64,000 nucleotides of DNA, taken from contig CBDFKD010000002.1 of the NCBI GenBank assembly GCA_965248695.1, positions 5,161,691-5,225,690 on the forward strand, in the 5' to 3' direction. Source of the stretch: Acidobacteriota bacterium. GTDB lineage: Bacteria; Acidobacteriota; UBA890; WLXD01. Of the stretch, positions 3,239 to 62,712 are shown one piece after another (the stretch's first letter is position 1; every line of letters begins with the position of its first letter). Both the position numbers and the translations under genes were made by a program. The notes below the pieces were generated by a model. The model was not told the DNA's origin. It saw only the letters and a program-made list of their open reading frames with translations, and did no database searches.

Positions 3239-3266
3239 GTGTCGACTCCCTCCGCTCACCGACCCC

Positions 3267-5261
3267 TCAGGTCCGCTCCGCCCACGGATACTGGAACTCC
3301 GGCCTGATCACGTCACCGATGAGGTCCTGAACGGCGCGATGCGCTTGATCCATCGCCGCATGCGTCAGGCTGGTGGCAGCGGCATCCGAGTTGGCCACGG
3401 CAATGCGACCAAATCGCTTCCGGCCGACCACCCAGGGGACCTCGTCGTAGCCCCATTCCGGGTCGTAGAGATCGTTGGCGCCGCCGGCATAGCCATGAGG
3501 CCATCGGTTGACGGTGATCGCGCTGATCTCCTCGGCGGGGTCGAAGCCGCCGCCTGCGAGGGCGCGCCCAAGCTCGTCGCGGATGCGGTACTCGAAGTAA
3601 TCGAACGATGTGGCGAGCAGCTCCTCGCGGCCGGCCCGGAACTGTTCCCTGGCAGAGAGACCAGGCTTGTGCGCGGGCATGCGCTGCAAGTGAAGCGGCT
3701 GAGGATCATCGGGGGTCCGGGCGCAGGTGTAGTCGCCGAGACTCCGATTCATGTCCAGCATCGCCGACCCGTGGTAGCAGCCGGGACCGTAGAAGCTGTT
3801 GATCCCGAGTGCCTCAAACGCCCTCCAGTTGCGCACCACGACGTTCGTGTAGACGAGCGGCTGGCGCACGGCCATCTTCAGCGCCGCCTTCTGCTCGTCG
3901 GGAAAGTCGGGACAGAGGTAGGGGATCATGGAGTTGTAGCAGGCCATGACGCAGGTGGCGCCGCGGGCCCGGTAGGCCTTGCCGTCACGCACGTAGGTGA
4001 CCTCGACCTCGCTGGCAGTGCGGCGCTCGCCGACGTGGCGGACGTTGACCACGGTGCTGTTGAGGCGGACGCGCGCGGCGCTGCCGTCTTCATCGATGGC
4101 GGCGTAGTCGACCGGCGTCGCCACCGAGTCTTCCATCGTCGTTCCCGGGAGAGCCTTCGGAATCAGCCATCTGACGATCAGTCGAGCGATCGCGGCATTG
4201 CCGTCGGGGAAGTGCACTCCCTCGCCGAAGTCGTTACCCTCGCCAAGCCAGCTCTCGGGCGGTCGCTCGAGACGCAGGCCGTCGAAGCCGGGCAGGGAGC
4301 CGGTGCGAAACGCTCCCCAGGCGCTATAGGAGTCGATCCTGGCCGCACCGTTGGAGCCGCCTTCAGCACGGCGCATGAAGAAGGGCATGACACCGGGATC
4401 GGCTTTGACGATCTTCAGAAGATAATCCTGGTAGCTCATCTTCCGCAGACGCGAGACCTTCTCATCGGAGGTCAATCCGGTTAGATAGTCGGTGTTGTCG
4501 TCGTAGGCGCGGGCGATATCGTGTTTGACGACATCAGTTAGCGGCGCATCGGCCAGGAACTGCGTCCATGTGAGCGTGCTACGAACCGAGCCCCAGCCGG
4601 CGGGATCTCCCACCGACAGGTGGTCGGCGCCGAACGTTTCCTGATCAAAGAAGACACCGGCCTGTAGGCCCATCTCGCGGTAAATGCTGCGATCGGCCGC
4701 CGTCGTCCGCAGGAAGCGTTGCTTGTCGATCCCGATGTCCTCCAGCAGCGCCTTTGCCTCGTGCGGGTAGCTGTTAGCGCCGTGGATCATCATCGTGCCG
4801 CCGTAGCCGATGACCAGCTTGCCATCGACCTCGAACTCGTTGCGCTTGGCGTGCCCGCCGAAGTCATCGTGATTGTCGAGAATCAGAATTCGCGCCTCCG
4901 GCAACGCCTTGCGGAAGAAGTACGCCGCCGACAACCCGCTCAGCCCACCACCGACGACGATGAGGTCGTAGCTCTCGCCGGTGTCCTCGGCGTTGTCCCA
5001 GGTCTTCCCATAGCGCATCTCGTGCGCTACTTCGTAGGAGCCCTCGTGACTGCCCCGCATGCCGGTGAGCCGCGGCGGGTAGTACTCGCCCGGCTGCGCT
5101 GCGGAAACGCCTGACCCGTTTGTCGAGCCCTTCGAGCCTGCGGGAGCCCCCGGCCTCCCGGCACCGACCAGGCCGCCGCCAATTGCGACGCTGGCCCCGT
5201 TGAGAAAATCCCGGCGGCTGATGTCACGGTCCATCCCGAGCTCTCGGTCAGTCTTGGTCAC
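3267..5261 (-). CDS. Tat-signal FAD/NAD(P)-binding oxidoreductase (SpdH/spermidine-dehydrogenase-like family, tentative)
   Basis: N-term twin-arginine motif SRRDFLNGASVAIGG; Rossmann dinucleotide motif DLIVVGGGLSGLSAAYFF; 664 aa; GTG start preceded by GAGGA. Confidence 0.6.
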   Translation of the reverse strand: MTKTDRELGMDRDISRRDFLNGASVAIGGGLVGAGRPGAPAGSKGSTNGSGVSAAQPGEYYPPRLTGMRGSHEGSYEVAHEMRYGKTWDNAEDTGESYDLIVVGGGLSGLSAAYFFRKALPEARILILDNHDDFGGHAKRNEFEVDGKLVIGYGGTMMIHGANSYPHEAKALLEDIGIDKQRFLRTTAADRSIYREMGLQAGVFFDQETFGADHLSVGDPAGWGSVRSTLTWTQFLADAPLTDVVKHDIARAYDDNTDYLTGLTSDEKVSRLRKMSYQDYLLKIVKADPGVMPFFMRRAEGGSNGAARIDSYSAWGAFRTGSLPGFDGLRLERPPESWLGEGNDFGEGVHFPDGNAAIARLIVRWLIPKALPGTTMEDSVATPVDYAAIDEDGSAARVRLNSTVVNVRHVGERRTASEVEVTYVRDGKAYRARGATCVMACYNSMIPYLCPDFPDEQKAALKMAVRQPLVYTNVVVRNWRAFEALGINSFYGPGCYHGSAMLDMNRSLGDYTCARTPDDPQPLHLQRMPAHKPGLSAREQFRAGREELLATSFDYFEYRIRDELGRALAGGGFDPAEEISAITVNRWPHGYAGGANDLYDPEWGYDEVPWVVGRKRFGRIAVANSDAAATSLTHAAMDQAHRAVQDLIGDVIRPEFQYPWAERT

Positions 5262-9376: not shown

Positions 9377-9419
9377 TGCTCCGCCCTCGTCTCAATCCCG
9401 CTCGCCTGATACCGAAAGA

Positions 9420-10901
9420 TCAATCGCCCGTTTGGCCGAACGTCTCCATGTACCACTTCACGAACCGAGCCGGGCTCCCCTCGTGAGTGGCGTAGCGGCC
9501 AGCGCTGTAGCCGCCCGACTGGATACCGAGGTGGTTGTTGCCGGTAAGCCAGATGTCTTCCATCGTCGTGACGTGCCACAGCGCCTTGAGCTCGTCCGGA
9601 TCGTAGTCGCGCCCCTCGACCGCATCCGGATGCACGAGCCAGATGACCTCGTTGTCGGTTCGGTCGTGCGCACGCGGTGTGTATCGGGCGATCATGACGT
9701 GGTCGTCGTAGCCCTGCCAGTAACCGGTTTGCCAGCGGGTCGTGGCGATATCGGTCTCATGGGTCCACGCGATCCTGGTTGGCAGGAGAGGAGCGACGGG
9801 GTTGCCATCCATGGACCCAGTGACGAACCCCGGGTTGAGCTCGCCGTCAACGTCGCCATAGCCGCCCATGCCTGACGCCCGTCGTTCGGCCGCTGCCGGG
9901 ACCCACTCGTCGACCGCCGTCGCGTGGGCGGCCTTCTGTTCGTCGGTGCGCTCTTCGTCGTAGTTGTGCGCTTTCACCAAGGACCCGTGCGCTGGTCCGC
10001 AGTGGTAGCACTCGATGAAGTTCTCCGTCGCGAGCTTCCAGTTCGACTTCAGCGGGTAGTACTCGCGGGCCGCGACCTTGAGCTTGTCGAAGCGGTAAAT
10101 TTCGTTCAGCGCTCGCACACGAGTCACGGTCGATTCGAACTCGGGGGGCGAATCCGATCGAGATAGATTGATGAAGATCTGGCCAGCGGCGACGCGCACA
10201 TGGCAGGGGAGAAGTCCGTTGTCCGCCGGGTCGAAATCGTCCTGCATGCCATAGGCGTAGATCAGACTTCCTTCGGTGTCATACGTCCAGGCGTGGTACG
10301 GACAGCGGAACACCGGCGAGTTGCCGTTCTGGCCAAGCTGCTTCACTGACAAGCGTGGATCCTGCGGCCTCGTATCCGCGTCGTGGCGGCACACCCGTGA
10401 GCCGCGGTGCCGGCAGACATTGTGGAAGGCGCCGACACTTCCGGTCTGGCTACGAACGAGCAGGATGCTCTCCGAGCGCCCGAACTCGAAAACGAAGAAA
10501 TCGCCCGGGCTCGGAATGCGGCTCGCCTGGTCGACGTACTGCCAGAGATTCTCCGCCAGGAAAGCCTCCTCCACCGCATAGTGCTTCGGGTCCAGGTAGT
10601 ACTCGGCCGGAATCGTGGTGCCTTCTTTCCAGCCGTTGATGCCGGCGTTCTCGGGCACGGTTACTGCGAACCGTGGCGCACCCTTGCCACCGTAGCCCGG
10701 TGCTTCCGCCGGCAAGTCTTTGCGGGCAACCGCAACCGGCGAGCCGATCGCATTCGCTGTTGATGGCCCCTGTGGTGGCGCACCGAACAGGGAGTTGGGC
10801 AAAGCGATTGCCGCGGTCCCAGCGGCTACCGAGGACTTGGCGAACGTGCGGCGGCTTACGCGCTGTCCGCCGTTGACGTCGTGACTGTCCTCGTTGCTCA
10901 T
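9420..10901 (-). CDS. Rieske non-heme iron oxygenase alpha-subunit-like protein with Tat signal
   Basis: Tat motif RRTFAKSSVAAGTAAIALP; Rieske 2Fe-2S motifs CRHRGSRVCRHD…CPYHAW; mononuclear iron motif ENFIECYHCGPAH. Confidence 0.75.
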   Translation of the reverse strand: MSNEDSHDVNGGQRVSRRTFAKSSVAAGTAAIALPNSLFGAPPQGPSTANAIGSPVAVARKDLPAEAPGYGGKGAPRFAVTVPENAGINGWKEGTTIPAEYYLDPKHYAVEEAFLAENLWQYVDQASRIPSPGDFFVFEFGRSESILLVRSQTGSVGAFHNVCRHRGSRVCRHDADTRPQDPRLSVKQLGQNGNSPVFRCPYHAWTYDTEGSLIYAYGMQDDFDPADNGLLPCHVRVAAGQIFINLSRSDSPPEFESTVTRVRALNEIYRFDKLKVAAREYYPLKSNWKLATENFIECYHCGPAHGSLVKAHNYDEERTDEQKAAHATAVDEWVPAAAERRASGMGGYGDVDGELNPGFVTGSMDGNPVAPLLPTRIAWTHETDIATTRWQTGYWQGYDDHVMIARYTPRAHDRTDNEVIWLVHPDAVEGRDYDPDELKALWHVTTMEDIWLTGNNHLGIQSGGYSAGRYATHEGSPARFVKWYMETFGQTGD

Positions 10902-11036
10902 CTACTTCGCCTCTCGACTATTCGAACGTTGGTCGACTCGCGCTTTCGCGAACTCGCCGAGCTTCAACGAACGAAAACCGCGGGAGCCGACGAGCAGATC
11001 GGCTCCCGCGGATTCACTAGCCAACTGACAGAAAGC

Positions 11037-12557
11037 TCAATCGCCGGCCTGGACAATCTCCTTCATGTACCAGTTGATGAAGCTCGACGGCCCGCCCTCG
11101 CGCGTTCCATACCGGCCGCCGCTGTATGCGCCGGACTCGACGCCGTCGTGGTTGTTGTCGGTGATCCAGATATCCTCCTGGATCGTGACGTGCCACAGCC
11201 CCTTGACGTGTTCCGGGTCGTAGTCACGGCCCTCGACTGCGTCGGGGTGCACCAGCCAGACGATCTCGGCGTCAGTGAACTTCTCGTTGCGCGGCGTGAA
11301 CCGAACCACCATGACGTGATCGTCGTAGAACTGCCAGTATCCGGTCGACTCTCCGGTGGTCGCGATGATCGTACGGTGGTCGCCTTCCTTTCTGCCGGGC
11401 AGCCAAGGTGCAGCCTGCTTGCCGTCGATCGTGCCAGTGACAAACCCCGGGTTGAGCAGACCAGTGAGGTTCTCATACTGGGGCTCGCCGCCCATACCTC
11501 CTCCGCCCATGCCGGCATCTTCATCGTCGCGACGACGACGGCTGTCCTCCGGAACCCAGTCCGCCACGGCAGCAGCCTTTTCGTTCATCTGCTGGTCGCT
11601 GAGGTCGTGGTCCCAATTGTGCGTCGTCACCAGGGGTCGGTGGGCCGGGCCGCAGTGGTAGCACTCCTTGAAGTTCTCGAGCGCCAGCTTCCAGTTGGCG
11701 TTGATTGGGTAGGACTCGCGCGCCGCGACCTTGAGGTCTTTCAAGCTGTACTCGGGGGCCAGCCGCCTGAGGGCGGTAACTGCCGAATCGAAATCCGGCG
11801 GCGTGTCTGACTTCGACAGGTTGACGAAGATCTGGCCTTCGGTAACCCGCGTGTGGCACGGGAGCAAACCGTTGTCGGCCGGGTCGAAGTCGTCCTGCAT
11901 GCCGTAGGCGTAGATAAGGCTGCCCTCGGTGTCGTATGTCCAGGCGTGGTACGGGCAGCGGAACACGGGTGAGCTGCCGCTCTGGCCGAGCTGCTTGACC
12001 GACAGACGCGGATCGCTCGGCTTCGAGTCGGAGTCGTGACGGCACAATCGCGATCCGCGGTGACGACAGACGTTGTAGAACCCGCGCACCTCGTTGTCCT
12101 GGCCTCGAACGATCAGAATGCTCTCGGAGCGACCGAACTCGAAGACGTAGAAGTCGCCCGGGTTCGGAATGCGGCTCTCCTGGTCGGTGTACTGCCAGAA
12201 GTTCTCCCCGACGAATTTCTCGTCGGCTTCGAAATGCTTCGCCTCGATGTAGTACTCGGCGGGAATCGTCAGGCCCTCTTTCCAGCCGTTGACGCTCGCC
12301 TTCTTGGCCACCGGGCCGGTGAGCGGGGCTGCGCCCCGGCCGCCGTAGCCAATGTTCTCGTTGCGCGCTTCGACGCGCGCGGCGCGGCCATAGGTGGCCG
12401 TGGTTGCGGTCGTCGTTGCGGCCGTTGCCGGGGTAGCGCCGAAAAGCGATTTCGGGAGAGCGACGGCGGCGGTGCCCGCGGCAACCGAGGACTTGGCGAA
12501 CGTGCGGCGGCTTACGCGCGGCCCGCCGTTCTTGTCGTGGTCGTCCTTCTTGCTCAT
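11037..12557 (-). CDS. Rieske non-heme iron oxygenase alpha-subunit-like protein with Tat signal (tandem paralog)
   Basis: Start ATG at 12557 with AGGAGA RBS; Tat motif SRRTFAKSSVAAGTAAVALP; CRHRGSRLCRHD…CPYHAW; ENFKECYHCGPAH. Confidence 0.75.
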   Translation of the reverse strand: MSKKDDHDKNGGPRVSRRTFAKSSVAAGTAAVALPKSLFGATPATAATTTATTATYGRAARVEARNENIGYGGRGAAPLTGPVAKKASVNGWKEGLTIPAEYYIEAKHFEADEKFVGENFWQYTDQESRIPNPGDFYVFEFGRSESILIVRGQDNEVRGFYNVCRHRGSRLCRHDSDSKPSDPRLSVKQLGQSGSSPVFRCPYHAWTYDTEGSLIYAYGMQDDFDPADNGLLPCHTRVTEGQIFVNLSKSDTPPDFDSAVTALRRLAPEYSLKDLKVAARESYPINANWKLALENFKECYHCGPAHRPLVTTHNWDHDLSDQQMNEKAAAVADWVPEDSRRRRDDEDAGMGGGGMGGEPQYENLTGLLNPGFVTGTIDGKQAAPWLPGRKEGDHRTIIATTGESTGYWQFYDDHVMVVRFTPRNEKFTDAEIVWLVHPDAVEGRDYDPEHVKGLWHVTIQEDIWITDNNHDGVESGAYSGGRYGTREGGPSSFINWYMKEIVQAGD

Positions 12558-12816
12558 TTGCGTTCTCCTGGGCCGCGGCAGCGGTGATCGGTCTGGAAGT
12601 CCAGAAGTTCTCCCTCGGCGCCTGGTGCCCGGAAGCGGCACTCACCCCACTTACGCACGCGCAGAGAACCTACTTTCACTTGTCTAGGTACTACGGTTGC
12701 GGCCGCACTACAACTGGCCGGGCGCCGACCTCCGTATCTTTATCCGGAGCCGGAGCCGCAGCACCTCCTGCTGCATCTATCATCCTTCCATGCCGGTGAA
12801 CGGTCGACCGTACCCC

Positions 12817-14630
12817 TCAGGTACGTTCCGCCCAGGGGTATTGGAACTCGGGACGAATCACGTCGGTCAGCAGCTCCTGCACGGCGCGGTGTGCCTGCTC
12901 GAAGGCCGCCTGGGTTAGCGAGATGGCTGCGGCGTCCGAGTTGGCGATCGTGATGCGCCCGAAACGCTGTCGCCCAACGACCCATGGCGCCTCGTCATAA
13001 CCCCAGTCGGGGTCATACAGGTCATTGGCGCCGCCCGCATAGCCATGCGGCCAGCGGTTGACGGTGATCCCGGCAATGTCGCGCGCCGGGTCGAACCCGC
13101 CGTCGCCGAGCGCCCGGCCGAGCTGGTCGCGGATGCTGCGCTCGAAGGTCTCGAAGCTTGTCGCCTGAAGCTCCTCGCGTCCAGCGCGAAACTGATCTCG
13201 CGCCGACAGTCCGGGCCGAATGGGAAGGCGCTGCAGCCACAACAGGATGGGCTCGTCGGGAGAGGCGGAATGGCGGTAGTCCCCGACGTTGACGCCCCAG
13301 TCCAGATCGATGAACTCGTGGAACCCACCCGGGCTGTGGATGGCACCGACACCCAGGTTGGCAAACGCCGTCCAGTTCTCGATCGCAACCTGCGTGTAGA
13401 CGTACGGCTTCCGTACCGCCAGCTTCAGGGCCTCCTTCTGTGCCTCCGGAACCTCCGGACACAGGTACGGAATCATTGCGTTGTAGCAGGCCATTACGCA
13501 GCTGCCGCCGCCGACGCGGACCGCCCGCCCGTTCTGCACGTAGGTCACCGCGACCTCGTTGGCTGCGCGTCGCTCGCCCGCGTGGCGCGCACTCACCACC
13601 GTGCTGTTGAGACGGATGCGTACCGGATTGCCGGCCTTGTCCAGCTGCGAGTAACGGATCGGCGTGGTTACCGAATCCTCCATCGTCGTCCCCGGCAGCG
13701 CCGCCGGAATGAGCCAACGGACCATTAGCCGCGCGATGCTGGCATTGCCGTCCGGGAAGTGAATTCCCTGGAATGGGTTGTCGCCCGGGGCAGCGTTGCG
13801 CGCCGGACGTTCGAGACCCTCATCTTTCGCAGTCGGGCGATCTTCTCCTCGTCGCTCAACTCCGGTAAATAGTCGCGGTTCTCGGTATAGAGCTGCAGGA
13901 TGCCCGCCTTGGCGGCTTCCGATAGGGGTGTTTGGGCAAGGAAGTCGGTCCAGCGACGGCGCGCCTGGGCACCGCGTGCCCGCCTTGGCTCGCCGACGAC
14001 CAGGCGGTCTGTGCCGAAGGTCTCGCGGTCGAAGAACACGCCGCCGCGCAGACCCATCTCACTGTAGAGGTCGTTCGCCGAGCCGCCAGGGAAGCGCTCC
14101 GCGCTCACGCCGATATCCTCGAGGAGATCCTTGGCCTCCGCCGGATAGTACCCGGTGATGAATTGGGTGCCGCCGTAGCCGATCAACTGCCGGTCGCCGA
14201 CGGTGAACTCGACGCGTTTGGCATGCCCACCGAAGTCGTCATGATTGTCGAGAACGAGCACCCGGGCTTCGGGGAGCGCCTTGCGAAAGTAGTAGGCGGC
14301 GGCAAGGCCACTGAGCCCGGCGCCGACCACCACCAGGTCGTACTGCTCGCCCGATTCCTCTGCCTCGTTCCAGGTCTTGCCGTAGCGCATCTCGTGCGCC
14401 ACCTCGAAGGAACCGTCGTGGCTGCCGCGCATGCCGGTGAGCCTCGGCGGGTAGTAGCTTTCCGGGTCCTGTGTGGGCGTCGCATGGCTGCCTGGGGGCT
14501 GGCCGGTAGGCACGGTGGCGGAGGCTCCAATCGCTGCTGCCGAGCCTCCAACGGCGACGCTGCTGCCGTTAAGGAAATCCCTTCGAGTGATTCGGCGGTC
14601 CATACCAAGCTGCTTGTCAGTCCTTTTCAC
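12817..14630 (-). pseudogene. Disrupted paralog of the Tat-signal FAD oxidoreductase (internal deletion of about 215 bp causing frameshift)
   Basis: N-part (13725..14630) and C-part (12817..13725) are each collinear with gene 3267..5261. The junction RLRKM|GLERP skips about 70 aa of the intact paralog and the downstream frame is out of register. Confidence 0.65.
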
Positions 14631-33786: not shown

Positions 33787-34054
33787 AGAGCCTGCGTATC
33801 GGGAGCTTCATGCGGCCGCCGACAGGATCGAGCCGCGCCTGGAGCGGGCGTTCGTACGGGCCATGGAGCGCTTGCGGGATCAGGTGTCGATCAACGAGCT
33901 AGCGCTAGCGCTGTCGGCCGGCGATGCGAAGGGGGCGCTGCGGCGGGTGCCGGTGGGTGAGGTTCGGGAGGCGTTGGAGGGAGTGGGAGACAGCGTGCAG
34001 GAGGCGTTCATGCGCGGTGGAAGACTCGGGGCGAAGCGAATCAATGAGCTCTAG
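33776..34054 (+). CDS. Hypothetical phage protein
   Basis: Shares 40-bp direct repeat (ERAFVRAMERLR) with next gene. Confidence 0.3.
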   Translation: MPRREPAYRELHAAADRIEPRLERAFVRAMERLRDQVSINELALALSAGDAKGALRRVPVGEVREALEGVGDSVQEAFMRGGRLGAKRINEL

Positions 34055-34055
34055 G

Positions 34056-34370
34056 ATGGAGCGGGCGTTCGTACGGGCCATGGAGCGCTTGCGGGAGGGT
34101 CTGTACGACGAGGCTGGTGCCGAGAGCTTGATGGCGCCTGTTCTGGTGGAGTGGCACGACTCGTACGGCTGTTCTGCCAGTTGGCAGCCATTGGATATGA
34201 TCGAGCCTGCGGCTCTCGTGTACCGGTCTGTAGGGTGGTTGGTACACGAAGACGATCAGTGTCTCGTGGTTGTGCCCCACCTGACGGACCAGACTGAGGG
34301 AGTTGCCCGCCAGGGGTGCGGCGACATGACGATTCCACGCTGCGCGGTGCTACGCGCGTCCAACGCCTAA
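34056..34370 (+). CDS. Hypothetical phage protein
   Basis: Starts MERAFVRAMERLREG; 104 aa. Confidence 0.3.
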   Translation: MERAFVRAMERLREGLYDEAGAESLMAPVLVEWHDSYGCSASWQPLDMIEPAALVYRSVGWLVHEDDQCLVVVPHLTDQTEGVARQGCGDMTIPRCAVLRASNA

Positions 34371-35990: not shown

Positions 35991-36280
35991 GAGCGTGACG
36001 TAGCACGCCATTAGGCTACGGCGGCTAACAGGGTCTCTTTAGATCCAGGGGGCCGCGCCCCGGTGGGGACGAATCGGAAGTAACCGAGCGTGACGCGGTG
36101 CGGTACGAAGCCGCGGCGGCTGGTGGATCTTGAAGGATCCAAGGGCCGTGCCCCGGTGGGGACGAATTCGGTAGTACTAAGACATATTCTGAGAGCGTGA
36201 CGTGGCACGCCATTAGGTCACGGCGGCTAACAGGGTCTCTTCAGATCCAGGGGGCCGCGCCCCGGTGGGGACGAATCCGC
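35991..36280. repeat. Three tandem about 100-bp repeat units, each with two hairpins, between scaffold and coat genes
   Basis: Units start at 35991, 36087, 36193; each ends ccagggggccgcgccccggtggggacgaat; units 1 and 3 near-identical, unit 2 diverged but hairpin-preserving. Confidence 0.8.
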
Positions 36281-52098: not shown

Positions 52099-52455
52099 AT
52101 GAGCGACGACAAGCGCCTGATTGCCGTGTTGGGAGGGCTAACAGGCGTCGGTGTCCTGCTGCTACTGCTGGGGCTGGCCTCCGAGGTCCGCACGGCGACC
52201 GGTGTCTCACCCACGAATCTGGGGCTCGTGCTACAGGCATTCGGCAAACGCCTTCTGGCCGTGACGCTTGGCCTGGGGGTGCACCAGGTGATCGACCGCG
52301 CCTTCCTGCCGTTCCTGCGCATTGAGCAGGCCTTTCGCCGGGAGGGCAAGTTCTCCACCGATGCCATGAGCAATGAGGAGCGCATGGTGTGGGTCGCCGG
52401 TTGGTTCTTGACCTTGGCGGTCATCGTCCTCGCCTTCGCCTCGGCGGCGAGCTAA
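52099..52455 (+). CDS. Membrane protein (holin candidate, 2-3 TM)
   Basis: Two hydrophobic helices; 118 aa. Confidence 0.45.
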   Translation: MSDDKRLIAVLGGLTGVGVLLLLLGLASEVRTATGVSPTNLGLVLQAFGKRLLAVTLGLGVHQVIDRAFLPFLRIEQAFRREGKFSTDAMSNEERMVWVAGWFLTLAVIVLAFASAAS

Positions 52456-52973
52456 TGGCCGGCGCGATCCAGGTCACAGCCGCGCTGTTGGCGGTGTTCT
52501 ATGGCGAGCTCGCCGGCGCGGGGTTGCCACTCGATCCGTTCGAGTCGCGGTTTCGGGCGCAGATCCAAGTGGAGTCGGCTTGGCGGCCCGAGGCGCGCTC
52601 CAAGTACGCCGCCGGACTCGCACAGTTCACCCCTGCCACGTGGAGCGACATCGCGCCGTACACCGAGCCCTCGTGCGCTGGCGCCCCCGAGACTGACCCG
52701 GCCTGCTCGATCCGCTCGCAGATCGTGTACATGCGCCGACTATTGATCCGATACAGCGACTCGGCGACCCCGGAGGACCAGTGGGCGTTTGCCTCGGCTG
52801 CCTACAACGGCGGTCCTGGATGGATCAGCCGCGAGAAGGCGCGGTGTGCGGCGGCTCCAGACTGCGAGCCGCGCCGCTGGTGGGGCCACGTCGAGCTGCA
52901 CTGTTTACGCGCCGCGTGGGCGTGCCGTGAAAACCGCGCCTACCCGCGCAAAATCGTCGCGCGGCTGCCGTAG
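52455..52973 (+). CDS. Lytic transglycosylase-type endolysin (SLT domain)
   Basis: QVESAWRPEARSKYAAGLAQFTPATW. Confidence 0.75.
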   Translation: MAGAIQVTAALLAVFYGELAGAGLPLDPFESRFRAQIQVESAWRPEARSKYAAGLAQFTPATWSDIAPYTEPSCAGAPETDPACSIRSQIVYMRRLLIRYSDSATPEDQWAFASAAYNGGPGWISREKARCAAAPDCEPRRWWGHVELHCLRAAWACRENRAYPRKIVARLP

Positions 52974-52980
52974 CGAAAGC

Positions 52981-53670
52981 ATGAGACTCCGCACTGCCAT
53001 TCTCCTCATCGCCCTCGCCACCCTCGTGGGCTTCGGTGCCGGATGGTGGCACTTCGCACCCTCGCTGCTGTCGCCTGAGGGGCTGGTCGGGCTGGCCTCG
53101 GGGCTGCTGGATCAGCAGCGCCGCGAGTCGCTGGCCCAGTACGAGGCGATGCAGGCGACCCACGCGGCCGAGATCGCCGCCTATGAAGCCGACCTCTCCG
53201 CTACAGAACGAGCGCTCGGCCAGCTGGGTCTCCGACTCGCCGAGCGCGATGCAGAGGCGGTCGAGGCGGAGCAGGCCCTTGGCCGCACTCTCCAGCTGGC
53301 GGCACAGCGCGAGGCGCAGCTGCGCGATGAGATCTTGGCGGCCGTCCCCGGGCTCGAGGTGCCCCTGGAGGAGCTACAGGCACAGCACCGCGGCGTGGTG
53401 AAGGGGTTCGAGCTACGGGTCAAGGCGCTGCAGCAGAGCGTCGAGACTCGTGACCAGCTGATCGTGAACCTGCGACAGCAGCTGGGTACCACTCGCCAGC
53501 TATACGAGACAACGCAAGCGCGGCTCGACCTGGCGGAGGCGCGGCGCAAGAGCCTCGAAGGACGGCGCGTGCGGCTAGCTCCAGCGCTGCTGATCGGCGG
53601 GATACGCGACCTGAGCGGCACAGACGGCTGGAGGGCTGGCGTCGCCGTCGGGATTGCGATCACCTGGTAG
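52981..53670 (+). CDS. Spanin-like protein (N-terminal TM + coiled coil)
   Basis: Start ATG 52981; MRLRTAILLIALATLVGFGAGWW then coiled coil. Confidence 0.5.
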   Translation: MRLRTAILLIALATLVGFGAGWWHFAPSLLSPEGLVGLASGLLDQQRRESLAQYEAMQATHAAEIAAYEADLSATERALGQLGLRLAERDAEAVEAEQALGRTLQLAAQREAQLRDEILAAVPGLEVPLEELQAQHRGVVKGFELRVKALQQSVETRDQLIVNLRQQLGTTRQLYETTQARLDLAEARRKSLEGRRVRLAPALLIGGIRDLSGTDGWRAGVAVGIAITW

Positions 53671-53722
53671 GAACCTCGAAGCTGCGCCTGACCAATCCGG
53701 TGCCGAGACGGTGAGGATGCAG

Positions 53723-54421
53723 CTAGCTGGAGTTGAACCGAACCTCTAGCTCCTTGACAACATCCAGCAGGGTTGCTGTCGACGCCGGTAACAATACGTA
53801 GTACAGCGGCTCTCCGTCTCCAGCACCGGCCCGCGGTTCGATAACAAAAACCTTTTCGGCGAGAGTTGCCGCAAATGACGTGACGCTGTCTTTGGCCTCG
53901 TAGGTCACGCGGTACCCGATGCGCAACGGGAGCAAATGGTGTTCGTCAGCGTAGGGGCTCACGGTTGCCGGTTCGAGGGTCTGCTCGACGAACTCCTGGA
54001 ACGCAGAGGAGAACATCCGTCGAAAGTCGATGTCGAGGGTGCAGATGCAGAAACTGTCCTGTGTCTCTGCGATGGGGACCATCGCGTCAACGTCGCACAG
54101 GCCGGACTCGACGAAACACTGCATGAGCTGGGCGTGGAACTCGTCCGCGTTTTCCGATGTGCCGAGCACCGTCGAGGAGATCCGCCGGGGCTCTACCCGC
54201 GTATGCATGATCGGCACCGCCGTGTCTTCGTCCAGCTGGTACGCGCCCCTCTCGAATACCACGGTATCTAGCCCGGCTTCGCCCAGGTTCGGGTTTACGT
54301 TGTTGAAACCGAACTCGGTGATGAGCTTGTTGCCAAGGCCTGCTGACAACACGGCCCCCGCAGGAAGCACGTCCGATCTAAAGATGCGCGTCTGGCTGAC
54401 GCTCAGTCGTCGAACCTTCAC
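53723..54421 (-). CDS. Hypothetical protein (232 aa), third gene of a toxin/HTH operon
   Basis: Translationally coupled to upstream HTH gene (4-nt overlap); no recognisable motif. Confidence 0.5.
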   Translation of the reverse strand: MKVRRLSVSQTRIFRSDVLPAGAVLSAGLGNKLITEFGFNNVNPNLGEAGLDTVVFERGAYQLDEDTAVPIMHTRVEPRRISSTVLGTSENADEFHAQLMQCFVESGLCDVDAMVPIAETQDSFCICTLDIDFRRMFSSAFQEFVEQTLEPATVSPYADEHHLLPLRIGYRVTYEAKDSVTSFAATLAEKVFVIEPRAGAGDGEPLYYVLLPASTATLLDVVKELEVRFNSS

Positions 54422-55092
54422 GCGACTATCCCCTGCTCAGCTCCGCTGGAGATTCCGGACGCCGGGCGCGCCTGAACCGAGGGGGCAATCGAGTCGTCCA
54501 TTGTGCTGGCGTAGTGGGAGATGTCGTCCTGCGGGATGAGACTACTGGCCCCTTGGGATTCCAGCCCGCTCTGGGGCACGCAGCTTGGTGCCAGATGCTG
54601 TTGGGTTGGTGCTCCTGGGGCGGGGTACCACCACATTGCCTTGCTGCCGATCGACGAGCCGGCAGAATGCCATATGCGAAGAAGGTCCGCGATCGTGATG
54701 GCAGTAGACGTATCCTCCTCTACTGCTCGGCCGTGGAACTCTGGATCCTCGTCAAACGAGGCCTGCCACAGGGTGGCAGGGCTGCGATCCTCGATCTCAA
54801 ACAGCATCTCACCAAAGCTCTCGAACCGCACCGACAATCCGATGTCGAAGATCTCGGCCAGCCGCTTAAGCGTCCCGATCCGCCCCGCCGGTTCGTTCGG
54901 ATCCTCTAGGCGGGAAATAGCTGACTGGCCGGTTCCGAGGAGTTCGGCAAGTTGCTCCTGAGATAGGCCCCGGTGCTTCCGGAGGATCCGAATCTGTGAC
55001 GCTACGACAGAATCGACGAACGAGTCGATGTAGGCATGCCGGTACTCTGGGTCACGAAACTCCTCGCGTAAGTGGTCTATGTCACGGGTCAA
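54418..55092 (-). CDS. XRE-family HTH regulator (HigA-like antitoxin with disordered C-terminal tail)
   Basis: LRKHRGLSQEQLAELLGTGQSAISRLE. Confidence 0.7.
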   Translation of the reverse strand: MTRDIDHLREEFRDPEYRHAYIDSFVDSVVASQIRILRKHRGLSQEQLAELLGTGQSAISRLEDPNEPAGRIGTLKRLAEIFDIGLSVRFESFGEMLFEIEDRSPATLWQASFDEDPEFHGRAVEEDTSTAITIADLLRIWHSAGSSIGSKAMWWYPAPGAPTQQHLAPSCVPQSGLESQGASSLIPQDDISHYASTMDDSIAPSVQARPASGISSGAEQGIVA

Positions 55093-55666
55093 AACGCTGC
55101 CTCCAATCCGCGTCGTCGATGATCGCTACTCGTCGCTTATTGGCTTTCGCACAACTGTTCCGGGGGTTCCACTTGCCGCCCACCTCGAACGCGCCCATCA
55201 GGAACGTGAACTCCGTGGTCTTGTCGATCGGCCCCTTGCACAATATGGGTCGTAGCTGCACTCCTCCGACTTGGATGCGGAGCTTGTAGAGATGCCGGTA
55301 CTTCCGTGTCGCGTCTTTGATTGGACCGGCAAGGAGCTCTGTCGAAACCGTCGGACCCTCTTCCCTGAGCAGTTTCGCCTTGTCGTTGAATCTGGCCTGC
55401 GCCCGACGCTGAAGACCATCGCGCCAGGAGGTAATCGTCCCCTGGCCTCTACCATCTACGTACTCATGCAAGGAGAAGATGGGCGTTGACGGTACCTTAT
55501 CACGATACTGTGATGCTGCGAGTTGACGGCGCTTTCGGCGACTCACCTGGCGGGCAGCGATTATCACGGGCCATCCGGCGGGTATCGGGCGCACCCCCCA
55601 GTTCCTCCCCCACCGTAGAAAACACCGTGCGGCCCTTCGAAAAGGCCGCCCGGCGCTTGCGGGCAC
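55082..55666 (-). CDS. Putative RelE/HigB-like toxin (phage gp49/DUF891-like); true start probably internal
   Basis: …RHLYKLRIQVGGVQLRPILCKG…FTFLMGAFE… resembles gp49-family; overlaps downstream HTH by 11 nt (toxin-upstream HigBA order). Confidence 0.4.
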   Translation of the reverse strand: MPASAGRPFRRAARCFLRWGRNWGVRPIPAGWPVIIAARQVSRRKRRQLAASQYRDKVPSTPIFSLHEYVDGRGQGTITSWRDGLQRRAQARFNDKAKLLREEGPTVSTELLAGPIKDATRKYRHLYKLRIQVGGVQLRPILCKGPIDKTTEFTFLMGAFEVGGKWNPRNSCAKANKRRVAIIDDADWRQRFDP

Positions 55667-55904
55667 GTCGAAGCCCCTCAGCTTCGCGCGGCGGGAAAGA
55701 TAGCACGCGAGAAGATCGCCGGCACTTCAGCTGCCTGCCAGCAGATGCGGCGCCAGGCATGGCACAGGTGCTCGCGGCCAAAAAGCGGTCTTGATGAGCA
55801 ACCAAAAGAGCGGCCGGAGGAGGTATCGTAGCGAACGTACCGTTCCGACCGCTCTTTCGTTCTTCGTGTACCGGGTGGTGGTGGGCTGGTGCCGGCTCCG
55901 GGCT

Positions 55905-55946
55905 TCCTATCTACGGGTCACGGGTTCGATCCCCGCCACCTCCACA
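55905..55946 (+). other. tRNA 3'-end-like fragment (T-arm GGGTTCGATCCCC + acceptor-like CACCTCCA); candidate att-site remnant
   Basis: T-loop consensus and acceptor 3' strand present but no foldable 5' half upstream. Confidence 0.35.
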
Positions 55947-56407: not shown

Positions 56408-56561
56408 GGGCTTGGATCTGGTCGCATCAAGAGCCTCAGCGGCCGGCGGATCAGGTTCGGGCGGCCCGCCGTGCTCATCGGTGCCGTGCGGAGCCCTGGG
56501 CGTGGATGGGAGCCGGGTGTCGCCGTCGGGATCGCGGTTACCTGGTAGGGAGGCGTGTGAT

Positions 56562-56774
56562 TTACCCCAACACCACTAGAGTATCGATCGTTGTCCCTAG
56601 CGCTCTAGCAATGCGGGACAGCGCGGCTGTAGAGCCGGGCTTGAGCCCACGTTCGATCTCAGACAGATATCCTGTAGCGATGCCCGTCTTGGCGGTGAGG
56701 TCGCGCACTGTGATGCCGTAGTGGGCGCGGAATGCAACGATTGGGCGTTCACCCTCCATAATGGCAAGTGCCAC
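56562..56774 (-). CDS. Short XRE-family HTH protein (Cro/CI-like)
   Basis: ITVRDLTAKTGIATGYLSEIERG. Confidence 0.7.
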   Translation of the reverse strand: MALAIMEGERPIVAFRAHYGITVRDLTAKTGIATGYLSEIERGLKPGSTAALSRIARALGTTIDTLVVLG

Positions 56775-57032: not shown

Positions 57033-57119
57033 GCCATCGTGGCGAAATCGGCAAACGCACCCGGTTTGCGACCGGGCGGCTGTCTAGGCCTTGTGGGTTC
57101 GAGTCCCACCGATGGCACC
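57033..57119 (+). tRNA. Class-II (long variable arm) tRNA-like gene, Leu-type scaffold, non-canonical anticodon loop UUUGCGA
   Basis: Acceptor GCCATCG/CGATGGC, UG at 8-9, 3-bp D stem GCG/CGC with AAATCGGCAAA loop, anticodon stem CCCGG/CCGGG, 16-nt variable arm, T arm GTGGG-TTCGAGT-CCCAC, discriminator A. Confidence 0.65.
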
Positions 57120-57639: not shown

Positions 57640-57735
57640 GATTATGTCGACCTTCTTGCTGAACGCGTTTGTTAGGCGAGTAAATCTGCGCATGTTCATG
57701 CGCATGGTCAGGTTCTGCCGCTCGATTCGCCGGAG
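57640..57735 (-). pseudogene. C-terminal fragment of an IS1-family transposase (…ERQNLTMRMNMRRFTRLTNAFSKK…)
   Basis: Matches conserved C-terminal motif of the intact IS1-family transposase at 59026..59895 but diverged in sequence. Confidence 0.5.
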
Positions 57736-57892
57736 AGCCGATGAGCTAGAAGAACTTCTCATCGAAAGCGTCGATGACCCATCCGACCTCGACCACGAGC
57801 GCGTCAAGGCTCTCGAATACAGCCAAGCCGGTATCAGGCCCCATACCTTCGCCGAAGACTACGCGCGCGACCACAAGCGTATCCATTCGGCA
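57727..57892. repeat. 165-bp segment duplicated (near-)identically at 62548-62712
   Basis: Directly read identity. Confidence 0.9.
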
Positions 57893-62415: not shown

Positions 62416-62547
62416 GACGAATACTCATACTCGACGAGGTCGCATAGAAACCCCATGACGCTACCGAACGCAGACACCCACACGCCACTGCGGAATCAGG
62501 CGGGTAGCGCAGTGGGCGAGGCCATCGTCACGCTTCTCATGGAGCTT

Positions 62548-62712
62548 CGCCGGAGAGCCGATGAGCTAGAAGAACTTCTCATCGAAAGCGTCGATGACCC
62601 ATCCGACCTCGACCACGAGCGCGTCAAGGCTCTCGAATACAGCCAAGCCGGTATCAGGCCCCATACCTTCGCCGAAGACTACGCGCGCGACCACAAGCGT
62701 ATCCATTTGCAC
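62548..62712. repeat. Second copy of the 165-bp duplicated segment
   Basis: Identical to 57727-57892. Confidence 0.9.

What the first reader, a model, noticed from the sequence alone, without database searches (positions are those of the whole stretch)
53723..55666. Three-gene toxin/HTH/unknown operon at the prophage end (candidate defense or addiction cargo)
Minus-strand genes overlap by 11 and 4 nt, which indicates translational coupling. They are a gp49/HigB-like toxin candidate, an XRE-family HTH with an N-terminal helix typical of HigA and an unusual about 120-aa low-complexity tail, and a 232-aa protein with no recognisable motif. The location between the lysis cassette and a tRNA is a typical hotspot for phage-borne defense systems. 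The third gene goes beyond a canonical two-gene HigBA.
Basis: inference. Interest (0 to 1): 0.6.

Follow-up and report, generated by a model that had tools for sequence, protein, structure and literature searches.

The report
Toxin-antitoxin operon with non-SecB third partner
At the end of a prophage sits a three-gene toxin–antitoxin module built like the known toxin–antitoxin–chaperone (TAC) phage-defence systems, except that the usual SecB-type chaperone is replaced by a protein from an undescribed family, which suggests that chaperone-dependent toxin control arose more than once.

Summary

The layout, including both overlaps, recurs in two other loci. In 59 homologous A–B loci the third slot holds either the C family (25), a SecB-like chaperone (20) or DUF3467 (13), interleaved on the A tree. 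Independently sampled C-family genes always follow a toxin and an over-long antitoxin (HicB, MqsA, BrnA-like or HTH).

Best reading: a TAC-like module in which C replaces SecB as the partner of the antitoxin tail. That role is inferred, not shown. C's fold is uncertain (pLDDT 50).

Verdict: new variant of a known kind; interest about 0.7.

The parts
55082..55567 (-). Gene A: HigB/Gp49-type RelE-fold toxin. The probable start is GTG 55567 (161 aa). The maximal ORF reaches 55666, and the alternative start is TTG 55471. The core is basic (pI 10.1).
54838..54993 (-). Gene B, residues 34-85: the XRE-type helix-turn-helix domain of the antitoxin.
   Evidence: Pfam HTH_3 E=2e-9, HTH_31 and HTH_19. 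NCBIfam Y4mF/HipB-type and MqsA-type antitoxin models match below their cut-offs. phrog_1373 E=2e-12.
54418..55092 (-). Gene B, whole (224 aa): a HigA-like antitoxin. It consists of an N-terminal helix, the HTH, a conserved linker (residues 86-118) and a variable tail.
   Evidence: Residues 1-118 are conserved across 59 homologous loci, and conservation stops at about residue 118. GGAGG lies 7 nt before the TTG start, and the gene overlaps A by 11 nt.
54421..54738 (-). Gene B tail, residues 119-224: 106 aa, rich in Ser/Ala/Gly/Pro, not conserved, with aromatic patches (W141, W154-W155-Y156, Y194) and a C-terminal Val-Ala. It is a candidate chaperone-addiction (ChAD)-like element with a degron.
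   Evidence: Composition and aromatic positions are. The lack of conservation is shown. The last residue is Ala in 23 of 59 homologues, against 9.8% Ala in the tails overall; AA or VA ends 14 of 59. Mtb HigA1 ends in a Val-Ala ClpXP degron, and the E. coli HigA ChAD is 96 aa with aromatic motifs (Mets et al.).
53723..54421 (-). Gene C: a 232-aa acidic protein (pI 4.65) from an undescribed family. It occupies the position that SecB-like chaperones hold in homologous modules. An 'EPR' motif occurs twice (VEPRR 76-80, IEPRA 194-198), half a protein apart.
55620..55649 (-). Terminator-like hairpin with a T-tract, upstream of the probable start of A. It marks the 5' limit of the operon.
53626..53671 (+). 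The 3' end of the spanin-like gene (…GVAVGIAITW*). An 80% identical copy lies at 56504-56549. The two copies bracket the 2.8-kb segment that carries the module.
   Evidence: plus my translation of both copies.
56504..56549 (+). Second copy of the 46-nt repeat. It encodes GVAVGIAVTW*, a remnant of a gene end.

Best explanation
This is a prophage-borne, three-component type II toxin-antitoxin module of the toxin-antitoxin-chaperone (TAC) type, with a non-SecB third component.

Gene A encodes a HigB/Gp49-type RelE-fold toxin. By homology this is a ribosome-dependent mRNA endonuclease that stops translation. Gene B encodes a HigA-like XRE-HTH antitoxin. It is expected to neutralise A and probably to repress the operon. 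Its 106-aa disordered tail ends in Val-Ala and is expected to make it unstable on its own. Gene C, translationally coupled to B, is proposed to bind that tail and keep the antitoxin soluble and protected, so that all three genes are needed for a non-toxic state.

By analogy with SecB-based TACs, loss or titration of C (for example by a protein of an infecting phage) would free the toxin and arrest the infected cell. That would protect the lysogen population, or stabilise the prophage.

Shown here: the gene layout, the fold of A, the domain structure and tail properties of B, the co-conservation, and the repeated exchange of C-family, DUF3467 and SecB-like genes in the same slot.

Inferred: the RNase activity of A, neutralisation by B, binding of the tail by C, and the defence or addiction role.

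For: 2. The gene order is toxin, antitoxin, third gene, as in all described TACs (PMC3581621). The overlaps of 11 and 4 nt are conserved in L001 and L009.

3. In 59 homologous A-B loci the third gene falls into four groups. The C family occurs in 25 loci plus the window. A family whose profile hits the Mtb TAC chaperone Rv1957 (5mtw_C, E=1.3e-4) occurs in 18. Direct Pfam SecB matches occur in 2 (L071 at E=8e-9; L029 only weakly, E=0.11, below the cut-off). DUF3467 occurs in 13. These groups interleave on the A tree. B cores that are 62-63% identical sit next to different third genes. This pattern is non-orthologous displacement of a known antitoxin chaperone.

4. C-family members were sampled independently of A. 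In all 7 loci where the upstream genes were on the contig, the C-family gene lies directly downstream of a small toxin-like gene and an over-long antitoxin: HicB of 183-204 aa three times, BrnT with a CopG-type antitoxin of 183 aa, MqsR with MqsA of 229-247 aa, DUF6932 with an HTH protein of 204 aa, and A with HTH. HigA, MqsA and HicB are the antitoxin families known to partner SecB-like chaperones.

5. B's tail has the length, disorder-type composition, aromatic patches and C-terminal Val-Ala of described ChAD elements. A C-terminal Ala is enriched about 4-fold among homologues.

6. C is acidic, with pI 4.65. The third-gene families have median pI 5.6 (C family), 5.3 (SecB-like) and 5.7 (DUF3467).

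7. Context: the module is at a prophage end here. It lies between a type I R-M system and a DUF1156/DUF499/helicase system in L001, and next to a DUF1156/PLD-helicase system in L002. Relatives of A occur on IMG/VR viral contigs. Described E. coli HigBAC and CmdTAC systems are prophage-encoded defence systems.
Against: - Nothing was tested experimentally.
- The C model is poor (pLDDT 50, built from a 2-sequence alignment).
- Pfam Gp49 does not hit A. The best result in the family is E=0.042, on the homologue P0009.
- Catalytic residues of A were not mapped onto HigB.
- B tails are unrelated to each other even among loci with the same type of third gene, so no tail motif specific for C could be defined.
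- PADLOC does not list the system.
- No operator or sigma-70-type promoter was found.
- In the related genome L007 the module is decayed, so it is dispensable.
Confidence: 0.6

Rival explanations
1. C is a sensor or trigger rather than a stabiliser. It binds the antitoxin tail, or a phage product, and promotes degradation or release of B on infection. It would then act as an adaptor or anti-antitoxin, and loss of C would make the module silent rather than toxic.
For: The context evidence is the same as for the main explanation and does not fix the sign of C's effect. In SecB-based TACs the chaperone is also the phage sensor. The tail ends in a degron-like Val-Ala.
Against: The slot is shared with SecB-like proteins, whose established role is stabilisation. 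In L007 the toxin is truncated together with the loss of C. That is what is expected if loss of C alone were harmful.
Confidence: 0.17
2. C is a second toxin or effector that is neutralised by the long tail of B. The module would then be a two-warhead system with one bifunctional antitoxin.
For: Disordered antitoxin segments commonly wrap around toxins (general knowledge of type II TA systems). C always accompanies an antitoxin with an added tail.
Against: C is acidic and has no nuclease, kinase, ADP-ribosyltransferase or membrane motif in any library. It is interchangeable with SecB-like chaperones and with a 100-aa DUF3467 protein. Each locus already has a recognisable toxin.
Confidence: 0.1
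3. The module is an ordinary two-gene HigBA pair followed by an unrelated passenger (moron) gene. The tail of B would be meaningless low-complexity sequence.
For: C has no recognisable function. The tail is not conserved. Prophage ends accumulate unrelated cargo.
Against: The 4-nt start/stop overlap and the gene order are conserved across loci whose C proteins are only about 25-55% identical. The C family is found behind five different toxin-antitoxin pairs and, in the sample taken, never elsewhere. Every partner antitoxin is 50-110 aa longer than its domain family requires.
Confidence: 0.05

Closest known systems
TAC (toxin-antitoxin-chaperone) systems: M. tuberculosis HigB1-HigA1-Rv1957 and E. 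coli NT1F31 HigBAC (Bordes 2011/2016; Guillet 2019; Mets 2024)
   Different: The third gene is not SecB-like at the sensitivity reached here. It is 232 aa rather than about 150-180 aa. It has no PF02556 match, no profile similarity to the SecB-like third genes, and a tentative two-lobed alpha/beta model. Chaperone function is not demonstrated.
Canonical two-gene HigBA of the Gp49 type (S. pneumoniae HigBA, V. cholerae HigBA2)
   Different: The antitoxin carries an extra tail of about 106 aa, and there is a conserved, translationally coupled third gene.
Other three-component TA systems (pasABC, paaR-paaA-parE, omega-epsilon-zeta, HipBST)
   Same: Three co-transcribed genes, with a third component that modulates a toxin-antitoxin pair.
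   Different: In those systems the third gene is a transcriptional regulator, a split toxin or antitoxin, or a neutralisation enhancer, and the gene order differs. None has an antitoxin tail paired with a swappable downstream partner. This comparison is from my own knowledge and was not tested here.
DUF3467 (PF11950)
   Same: It occupies the same third-gene slot behind homologous A-B pairs in 13 loci and on one viral contig.
   Different: It is about 100-140 aa and shows no detectable similarity to C. It is itself uncharacterised: only one paper in the library mentions it.

Membership tests
RelE/ParE superfamily, HigB/Gp49-like clade (gene A) | RelE-type fold: an antiparallel beta-sheet flanked by helices | tested here: met
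RelE/ParE superfamily, HigB/Gp49-like clade (gene A) | Match to Pfam PF05973 (Gp49) above the gathering score | tested here: not met
   No Pfam hit on A at E<=1. The homologue P0009 reaches only E=0.042 and 14.3 bits, against a cut-off of 23.9. The profile of the A family finds no PDB sequence. A is a divergent member recognisable only by structure.
RelE/ParE superfamily, HigB/Gp49-like clade (gene A) | Long C-terminal helix alpha3, typical of Gp49-like HigB toxins | tested here: met
   The model has helix 107-120. The feature is described in PMC9098466.
RelE/ParE superfamily, HigB/Gp49-like clade (gene A) | Catalytic basic and acidic residues equivalent to HigB1 E66/R68/R77/K95 | not tested
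   The family has invariant H61, Y63, K64, R75, E88, E97, R115 and R125. No residue-level structural superposition was available to map them.
XRE-family HTH antitoxin, HigA-like (gene B) | Cro/C1-type helix-turn-helix domain encoded directly after the toxin gene | tested here: met
   HTH_3 E=2e-9, above the cut-off. B overlaps A by 11 nt.
TAC (toxin-antitoxin-chaperone) system | Tricistronic order: toxin, antitoxin, third gene | tested here: met
   The order is stated as universal for TACs in PMC3581621.
TAC (toxin-antitoxin-chaperone) system | Antitoxin with a disordered C-terminal chaperone-addiction extension | tested here: inconclusive
   A 106-aa non-conserved Ser/Ala/Gly/Pro-rich tail with aromatic patches and a Val-Ala end is present. 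Whether it causes instability or chaperone dependence cannot be tested with these tools.
TAC (toxin-antitoxin-chaperone) system | Third gene is a SecB-like chaperone (PF02556) | tested here: not met
TAC (toxin-antitoxin-chaperone) system | Antitoxin function depends on the third protein | not testable with these tools
   This needs toxicity/rescue and stability assays.
Catalogued anti-phage defence systems (PADLOC-DB 2.0) | Match of the components to a defence-system model | tested here: not met
   Only generic HTH models hit B. A and C have no hit.

The most novel reading that the evidence does not exclude
The C family (about 300 sequence clusters) and DUF3467 are new classes of dedicated antitoxin chaperones or phage sensors unrelated to SecB. 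If so, chaperone-addicted toxin-antitoxin modules are a general architecture invented at least three times, with the third component freely swapped among HigBA, HicAB, MqsRA, BrnTA and other pairs.
Probability: 0.45. Interest if true: 0.8.

Novelty: new variant of a known kind. Interest (0 to 1): 0.7.

Why it matters
Every paper retrieved defines TAC systems by a SecB-like chaperone. In the best-studied cases that chaperone is also the phage sensor.

If an unrelated 230-aa family, and DUF3467, do the same job, three things follow:
1. Searches for TACs that key on SecB miss a large share of such systems.
2. Two protein families of unknown function receive a testable function.
3. The 'unstable tail plus dedicated guardian' logic is shown to be convergent. 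That gives new sensor modules for comparing how phage proteins are recognised, and new parts for engineered hybrid defence systems of the kind built by Mets et al.

The A-B scaffold with four interchangeable third genes is a natural experiment for studying that exchange.

Tried and rejected
- **Sequence libraries.** Pfam, PADLOC, NCBIfam and PHROGs on A and C gave nothing. The same was true for 100 C-family members.
- **PDB sequence search.** Profiles of the A family and the C family gave no meaningful hit. The DUF3467 profile also gave none.
- **Word-indexed homologue search.** It found only one relative of C, and with the family profile only four. The exhaustive HMMER search was needed.
- **Locus retrieval for the C family.** `search for related loci` with C-family alignments failed twice because no stretch was conserved enough. 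Family contexts therefore come from only nine look-ups, two of which were uninformative because the gene lay at a contig end.
- **Internal repeat in C.** hhalign of the N-half against the C-half gave a marginal E=0.024 over 19 columns. The duplicated EPR motif is suggestive only.
- **Similarity among third-gene families.** hhalign among the four families was negative. It also missed the SecB relationship of the C2 family, which was later shown against Rv1957. A very remote C-SecB link is therefore not excluded.
- **Tail motif.** B tails are unrelated to each other even within one third-gene type.
- **Regulatory elements.** No sigma-70-type promoter was found. The palindrome ATCACagtatcGTGAT (55499-55514) is conserved in L001 but lies inside the probable coding extension of A, so I do not claim it as an operator.
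- **GenBank phages and PLSDB plasmids.** tblastn with C found no match.
- **Own genome record.** The exact-sequence look-up of the window's C protein was not on record.

Full report
**1. What is in the sequence**

Three minus-strand ORFs are present in the window. A is 55082-55666 as the maximal ORF, B is 54418-55092 and C is 53723-54421. A and B overlap by 11 nt, and B and C by 4 nt (GTGA). B and C each have a Shine-Dalgarno-like motif 7 nt before the start. Third-position GC is of coding type.

The 194-aa version of A is too long, for three reasons:
- Its homologues are 130-137 aa.
- A terminator-like hairpin at 55620-55649 lies inside the long ORF.
- Comparison with two related loci shows a short N-terminal extension kept at the protein level. 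An RRKRR motif is preserved through synonymous third-position changes, and the extension's start aligns with GTG 55567.

I therefore place A at 55082-55567, with TTG 55471 as the alternative start.

Upstream, on the plus strand, lie a tape-measure gene, a baseplate-like gene, an XhlA/holin-like ORF, an endolysin (52389-52973) and a coiled-coil spanin-like ORF that ends at 53670. The module is therefore at the end of a prophage late region.

The neighbouring tRNA-Arg (55874-55945) is called only by ARAGORN. Rfam scores it below threshold.

GC content falls from about 0.65 to about 0.58-0.61 from 54 kb onward. A 46-nt copy of the 3' end of the spanin-like gene recurs at 56504-56549, so the two copies bracket 2.8 kb that include the module.

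**2. Gene A is a HigB-type toxin**

No sequence library recognises A. A profile of its family finds no PDB sequence. One homologue reaches only E=0.042 on Pfam Gp49.

The model has the long C-terminal helix described for Gp49-like HigB toxins. The core is basic, with pI 10.1. I did not map catalytic residues.

**3. Gene B is an HTH antitoxin with an added tail**

Residues 34-85 form an XRE-type HTH. Across 59 homologous loci, residues 1-118 are conserved and conservation then stops.

The remaining 106 residues have these properties:
- They are rich in Ser, Ala, Gly and Pro.
- They contain a few aromatic patches (W141, W154-W155-Y156, Y194).
- They end in Val-Ala.

Among the 59 homologues, 23 end in Ala, although Ala makes up only 9.8% of tail residues. 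Fourteen end in AA or VA.

In described TAC systems the antitoxin carries a disordered C-terminal chaperone-addiction element. It is 96 aa in E. coli NT1F31 HigA and is recognised through aromatic residues. The M. tuberculosis HigA1 tail ends in a Val-Ala ClpXP degron (Mets et al.).

**4. Gene C belongs to a real but undescribed family**

The word-indexed search found a single relative, 55% identical. The exhaustive HMMER search with the two-sequence profile found 298 cluster representatives at E<1e-3, and 191 at E<1e-10. Nearly all of the 150 listed are about 230 aa and match end to end.

None of 100 members has a consistent Pfam or NCBIfam match. The family profile finds no PDB sequence.

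The window protein is acidic (pI 4.65), and the family median is 5.6.

A two-lobed TBP-like fold is therefore a hint, not a result. No SecB structure appears among the 60 best hits.

**5. Co-conservation and the identity of the third slot**

The 55%-identical relative of C lies in a locus with the same three genes and the same -11 and -4 overlaps. That locus sits between a DUF1156/DUF499/helicase system and a type I restriction-modification system.

A scan of one genome per species found 71 loci that encode relatives of A, mostly in Acidobacteriota, Methylococcales and Burkholderiales.

Using my own ORF extraction, gene A in nearly all of these loci is followed by a closely spaced, usually overlapping, HTH gene of 150-230 aa and then by a third gene. 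Clustering the third genes gave four groups:

| Third gene | Loci | Evidence for identity |
|---|---|---|
| C family | 25, plus the window | HMM of the C family |
| Family of about 170-215 aa ('C2') | 18 | Profile hits the M. tuberculosis TAC chaperone Rv1957 as its only significant PDB match (5mtw_C, E=1.3e-4) |
| Direct Pfam SecB match | 2 | L071 at E=8e-9; L029 only weakly, below the cut-off |
| DUF3467 | 13 | Pfam PF11950 above the cut-off on the members scanned |

On a neighbour-joining tree of A, the C-family and DUF3467 loci interleave repeatedly, and the SecB-type loci appear in two places. B cores that are 62-63% identical sit next to different third genes.

So the A-B pair is a bona fide TAC scaffold. 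Its known chaperone has been replaced several times by unrelated proteins, one of which is the window's C.

**6. Independent evidence from the C family**

I sampled C-family members found through C alone. Of nine look-ups, seven had the upstream genes on the contig. In all seven the C-family gene lies directly downstream of a small toxin-like gene and an unusually long antitoxin:

| C-family member | Upstream pair |
|---|---|
| P0060, P0030, P0045 | small ORF plus HicB of 183-204 aa |
| P0023 | BrnT plus a CopG-type antitoxin of 183 aa |
| P0119 | MqsR plus MqsA of 229-247 aa |
| P0090 | DUF6932 plus an HTH protein of 204 aa |
| P0002 | A plus HTH |

In the sequences printed, these antitoxins carry extra C-terminal residues beyond their recognisable domain.

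HigA, MqsA and HicB are the antitoxin families reported to partner SecB-like chaperones, always in the order toxin, antitoxin, chaperone (PMC3581621).

**7. Interpretation**

The best-supported reading is a TAC-like module:
- A is a translation-blocking RNase toxin.
- B is its antitoxin, and its disordered, degron-tipped tail makes it dependent on a partner.
- C is that partner, standing in for SecB.

By analogy with E. coli HigBAC and CmdTAC, which are prophage-borne and are triggered when a phage structural protein competes for the chaperone, the module probably protects the lysogen against other phages or stabilises the prophage.

The evidence for C's role is positional and comparative only. 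The direction of its effect (stabiliser or trigger) and its fold remain open.

A close relative of this prophage (L007) retains only the 3' part of A and a fragment of B's tail. C is deleted there and transposase fragments are inserted. The module was therefore ancestral at this site and is dispensable. The toxin is inactivated along with the loss of C.

**8. Novelty**

Every paper I could retrieve defines the TAC third component as SecB-like. DUF3467 appears in one unrelated paper. PADLOC does not list the system. GenBank phages and PLSDB plasmids hold no detectable homologue of C.

I rate this a new variant of a known kind. The A-B part is a divergent member of a known family. The replacement of SecB by the C family (and by DUF3467) is the new element. 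The literature search covers only the held library, so earlier description elsewhere is possible.

Noticed in passing
L008, L012, L016, L026, L030, L039, L052, L056, L057, L059, L065, L068, L072, L082 (third gene after the A-B pair): DUF3467 (PF11950), a family of unknown function, occupies the same slot as SecB-like chaperones and the C family behind homologous HigB-HigA pairs. This implies a chaperone or partner role for DUF3467. Its profile finds no solved structure.
   Followed up: partly
window 55472-55567 (-): Gene A has an N-terminal extension of about 32 aa with an RRKRR motif. It is shared with L001 and L009 but absent from other homologues. The motif is kept through synonymous codon changes, so the extension is probably translated. 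Its function is unknown.
   Followed up: partly
window 55499-55514: The palindrome ATCACagtatcGTGAT is conserved in L001 and L009 just upstream of the toxin core. It could be an operator for the HTH antitoxin, but it lies within the probable coding extension of A.
   Followed up: no
window 53626-53671 and 56504-56549: The last 46 nt of the spanin-like gene (…GVAVGIAITW*) recur 2.9 kb downstream at 80% identity as a gene-end remnant (…GVAVGIAVTW*). The two copies bracket the toxin module, the tRNA-like sequence and a 91-aa ORF. This looks like a scar from insertion or recombination of a cargo segment.
   Followed up: partly
window 56562-56774 (-): A small 70-aa XRE-HTH ORF (phrog_7241, E=3e-13) lies right next to the repeat remnant. 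It may be a second antitoxin or regulator. No partner toxin was identified.
   Followed up: no
window 55874-55945 (+) and 57033-57119 (+): ARAGORN calls a tRNA-Arg(CCT) that Rfam scores only 24.5 bits, below threshold, so it may be a degenerate tRNA. The tRNA-Ala(TGC) call is 85-87 nt long, which is unusual for an Ala tRNA, although Rfam accepts it as a tRNA (58 bits).
   Followed up: partly
window 57726-57887 and 62546-62707: A perfect 162-nt direct repeat, 4.8 kb apart, overlaps fragments resembling an IS1595/ISXO2-type transposase. The region from 56 to 64 kb has lower GC (0.58-0.61) than the rest of the window.
   Followed up: no
L007 8800-12800 (Acidobacteriota MAG CBDFKO010000002.1): A related prophage end carries a decayed copy of the module. 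It keeps the 3' part of A (98.7% identical) and 120 nt of B's tail. C is deleted except for its last 10 codons, and transposase-like ORFs are inserted between the pieces.
   Followed up: partly
window 35991-36279 and 33840-34096: The phage region contains two to three tandem-like copies of an 85-nt element (95% identical) and a perfect 40-nt repeat 217 nt apart. Their purpose is unknown.
   Followed up: no
window 3262-5261 vs 12812-14630, and 9411-10901 vs 11028-12641: There are paralogous gene blocks at 72-81% DNA identity, including a tandem pair of genes of about 500 aa. I did not examine them.
   Followed up: no
L001 1-7600 and 13500-19600; L002 9960-16400: Relatives of the module sit beside DUF1156/DUF499/SNF2-helicase gene sets, a type I R-M system and a PLD-helicase/DUF1156/DUF3780 set. 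This is a defence-island context.
   Followed up: no
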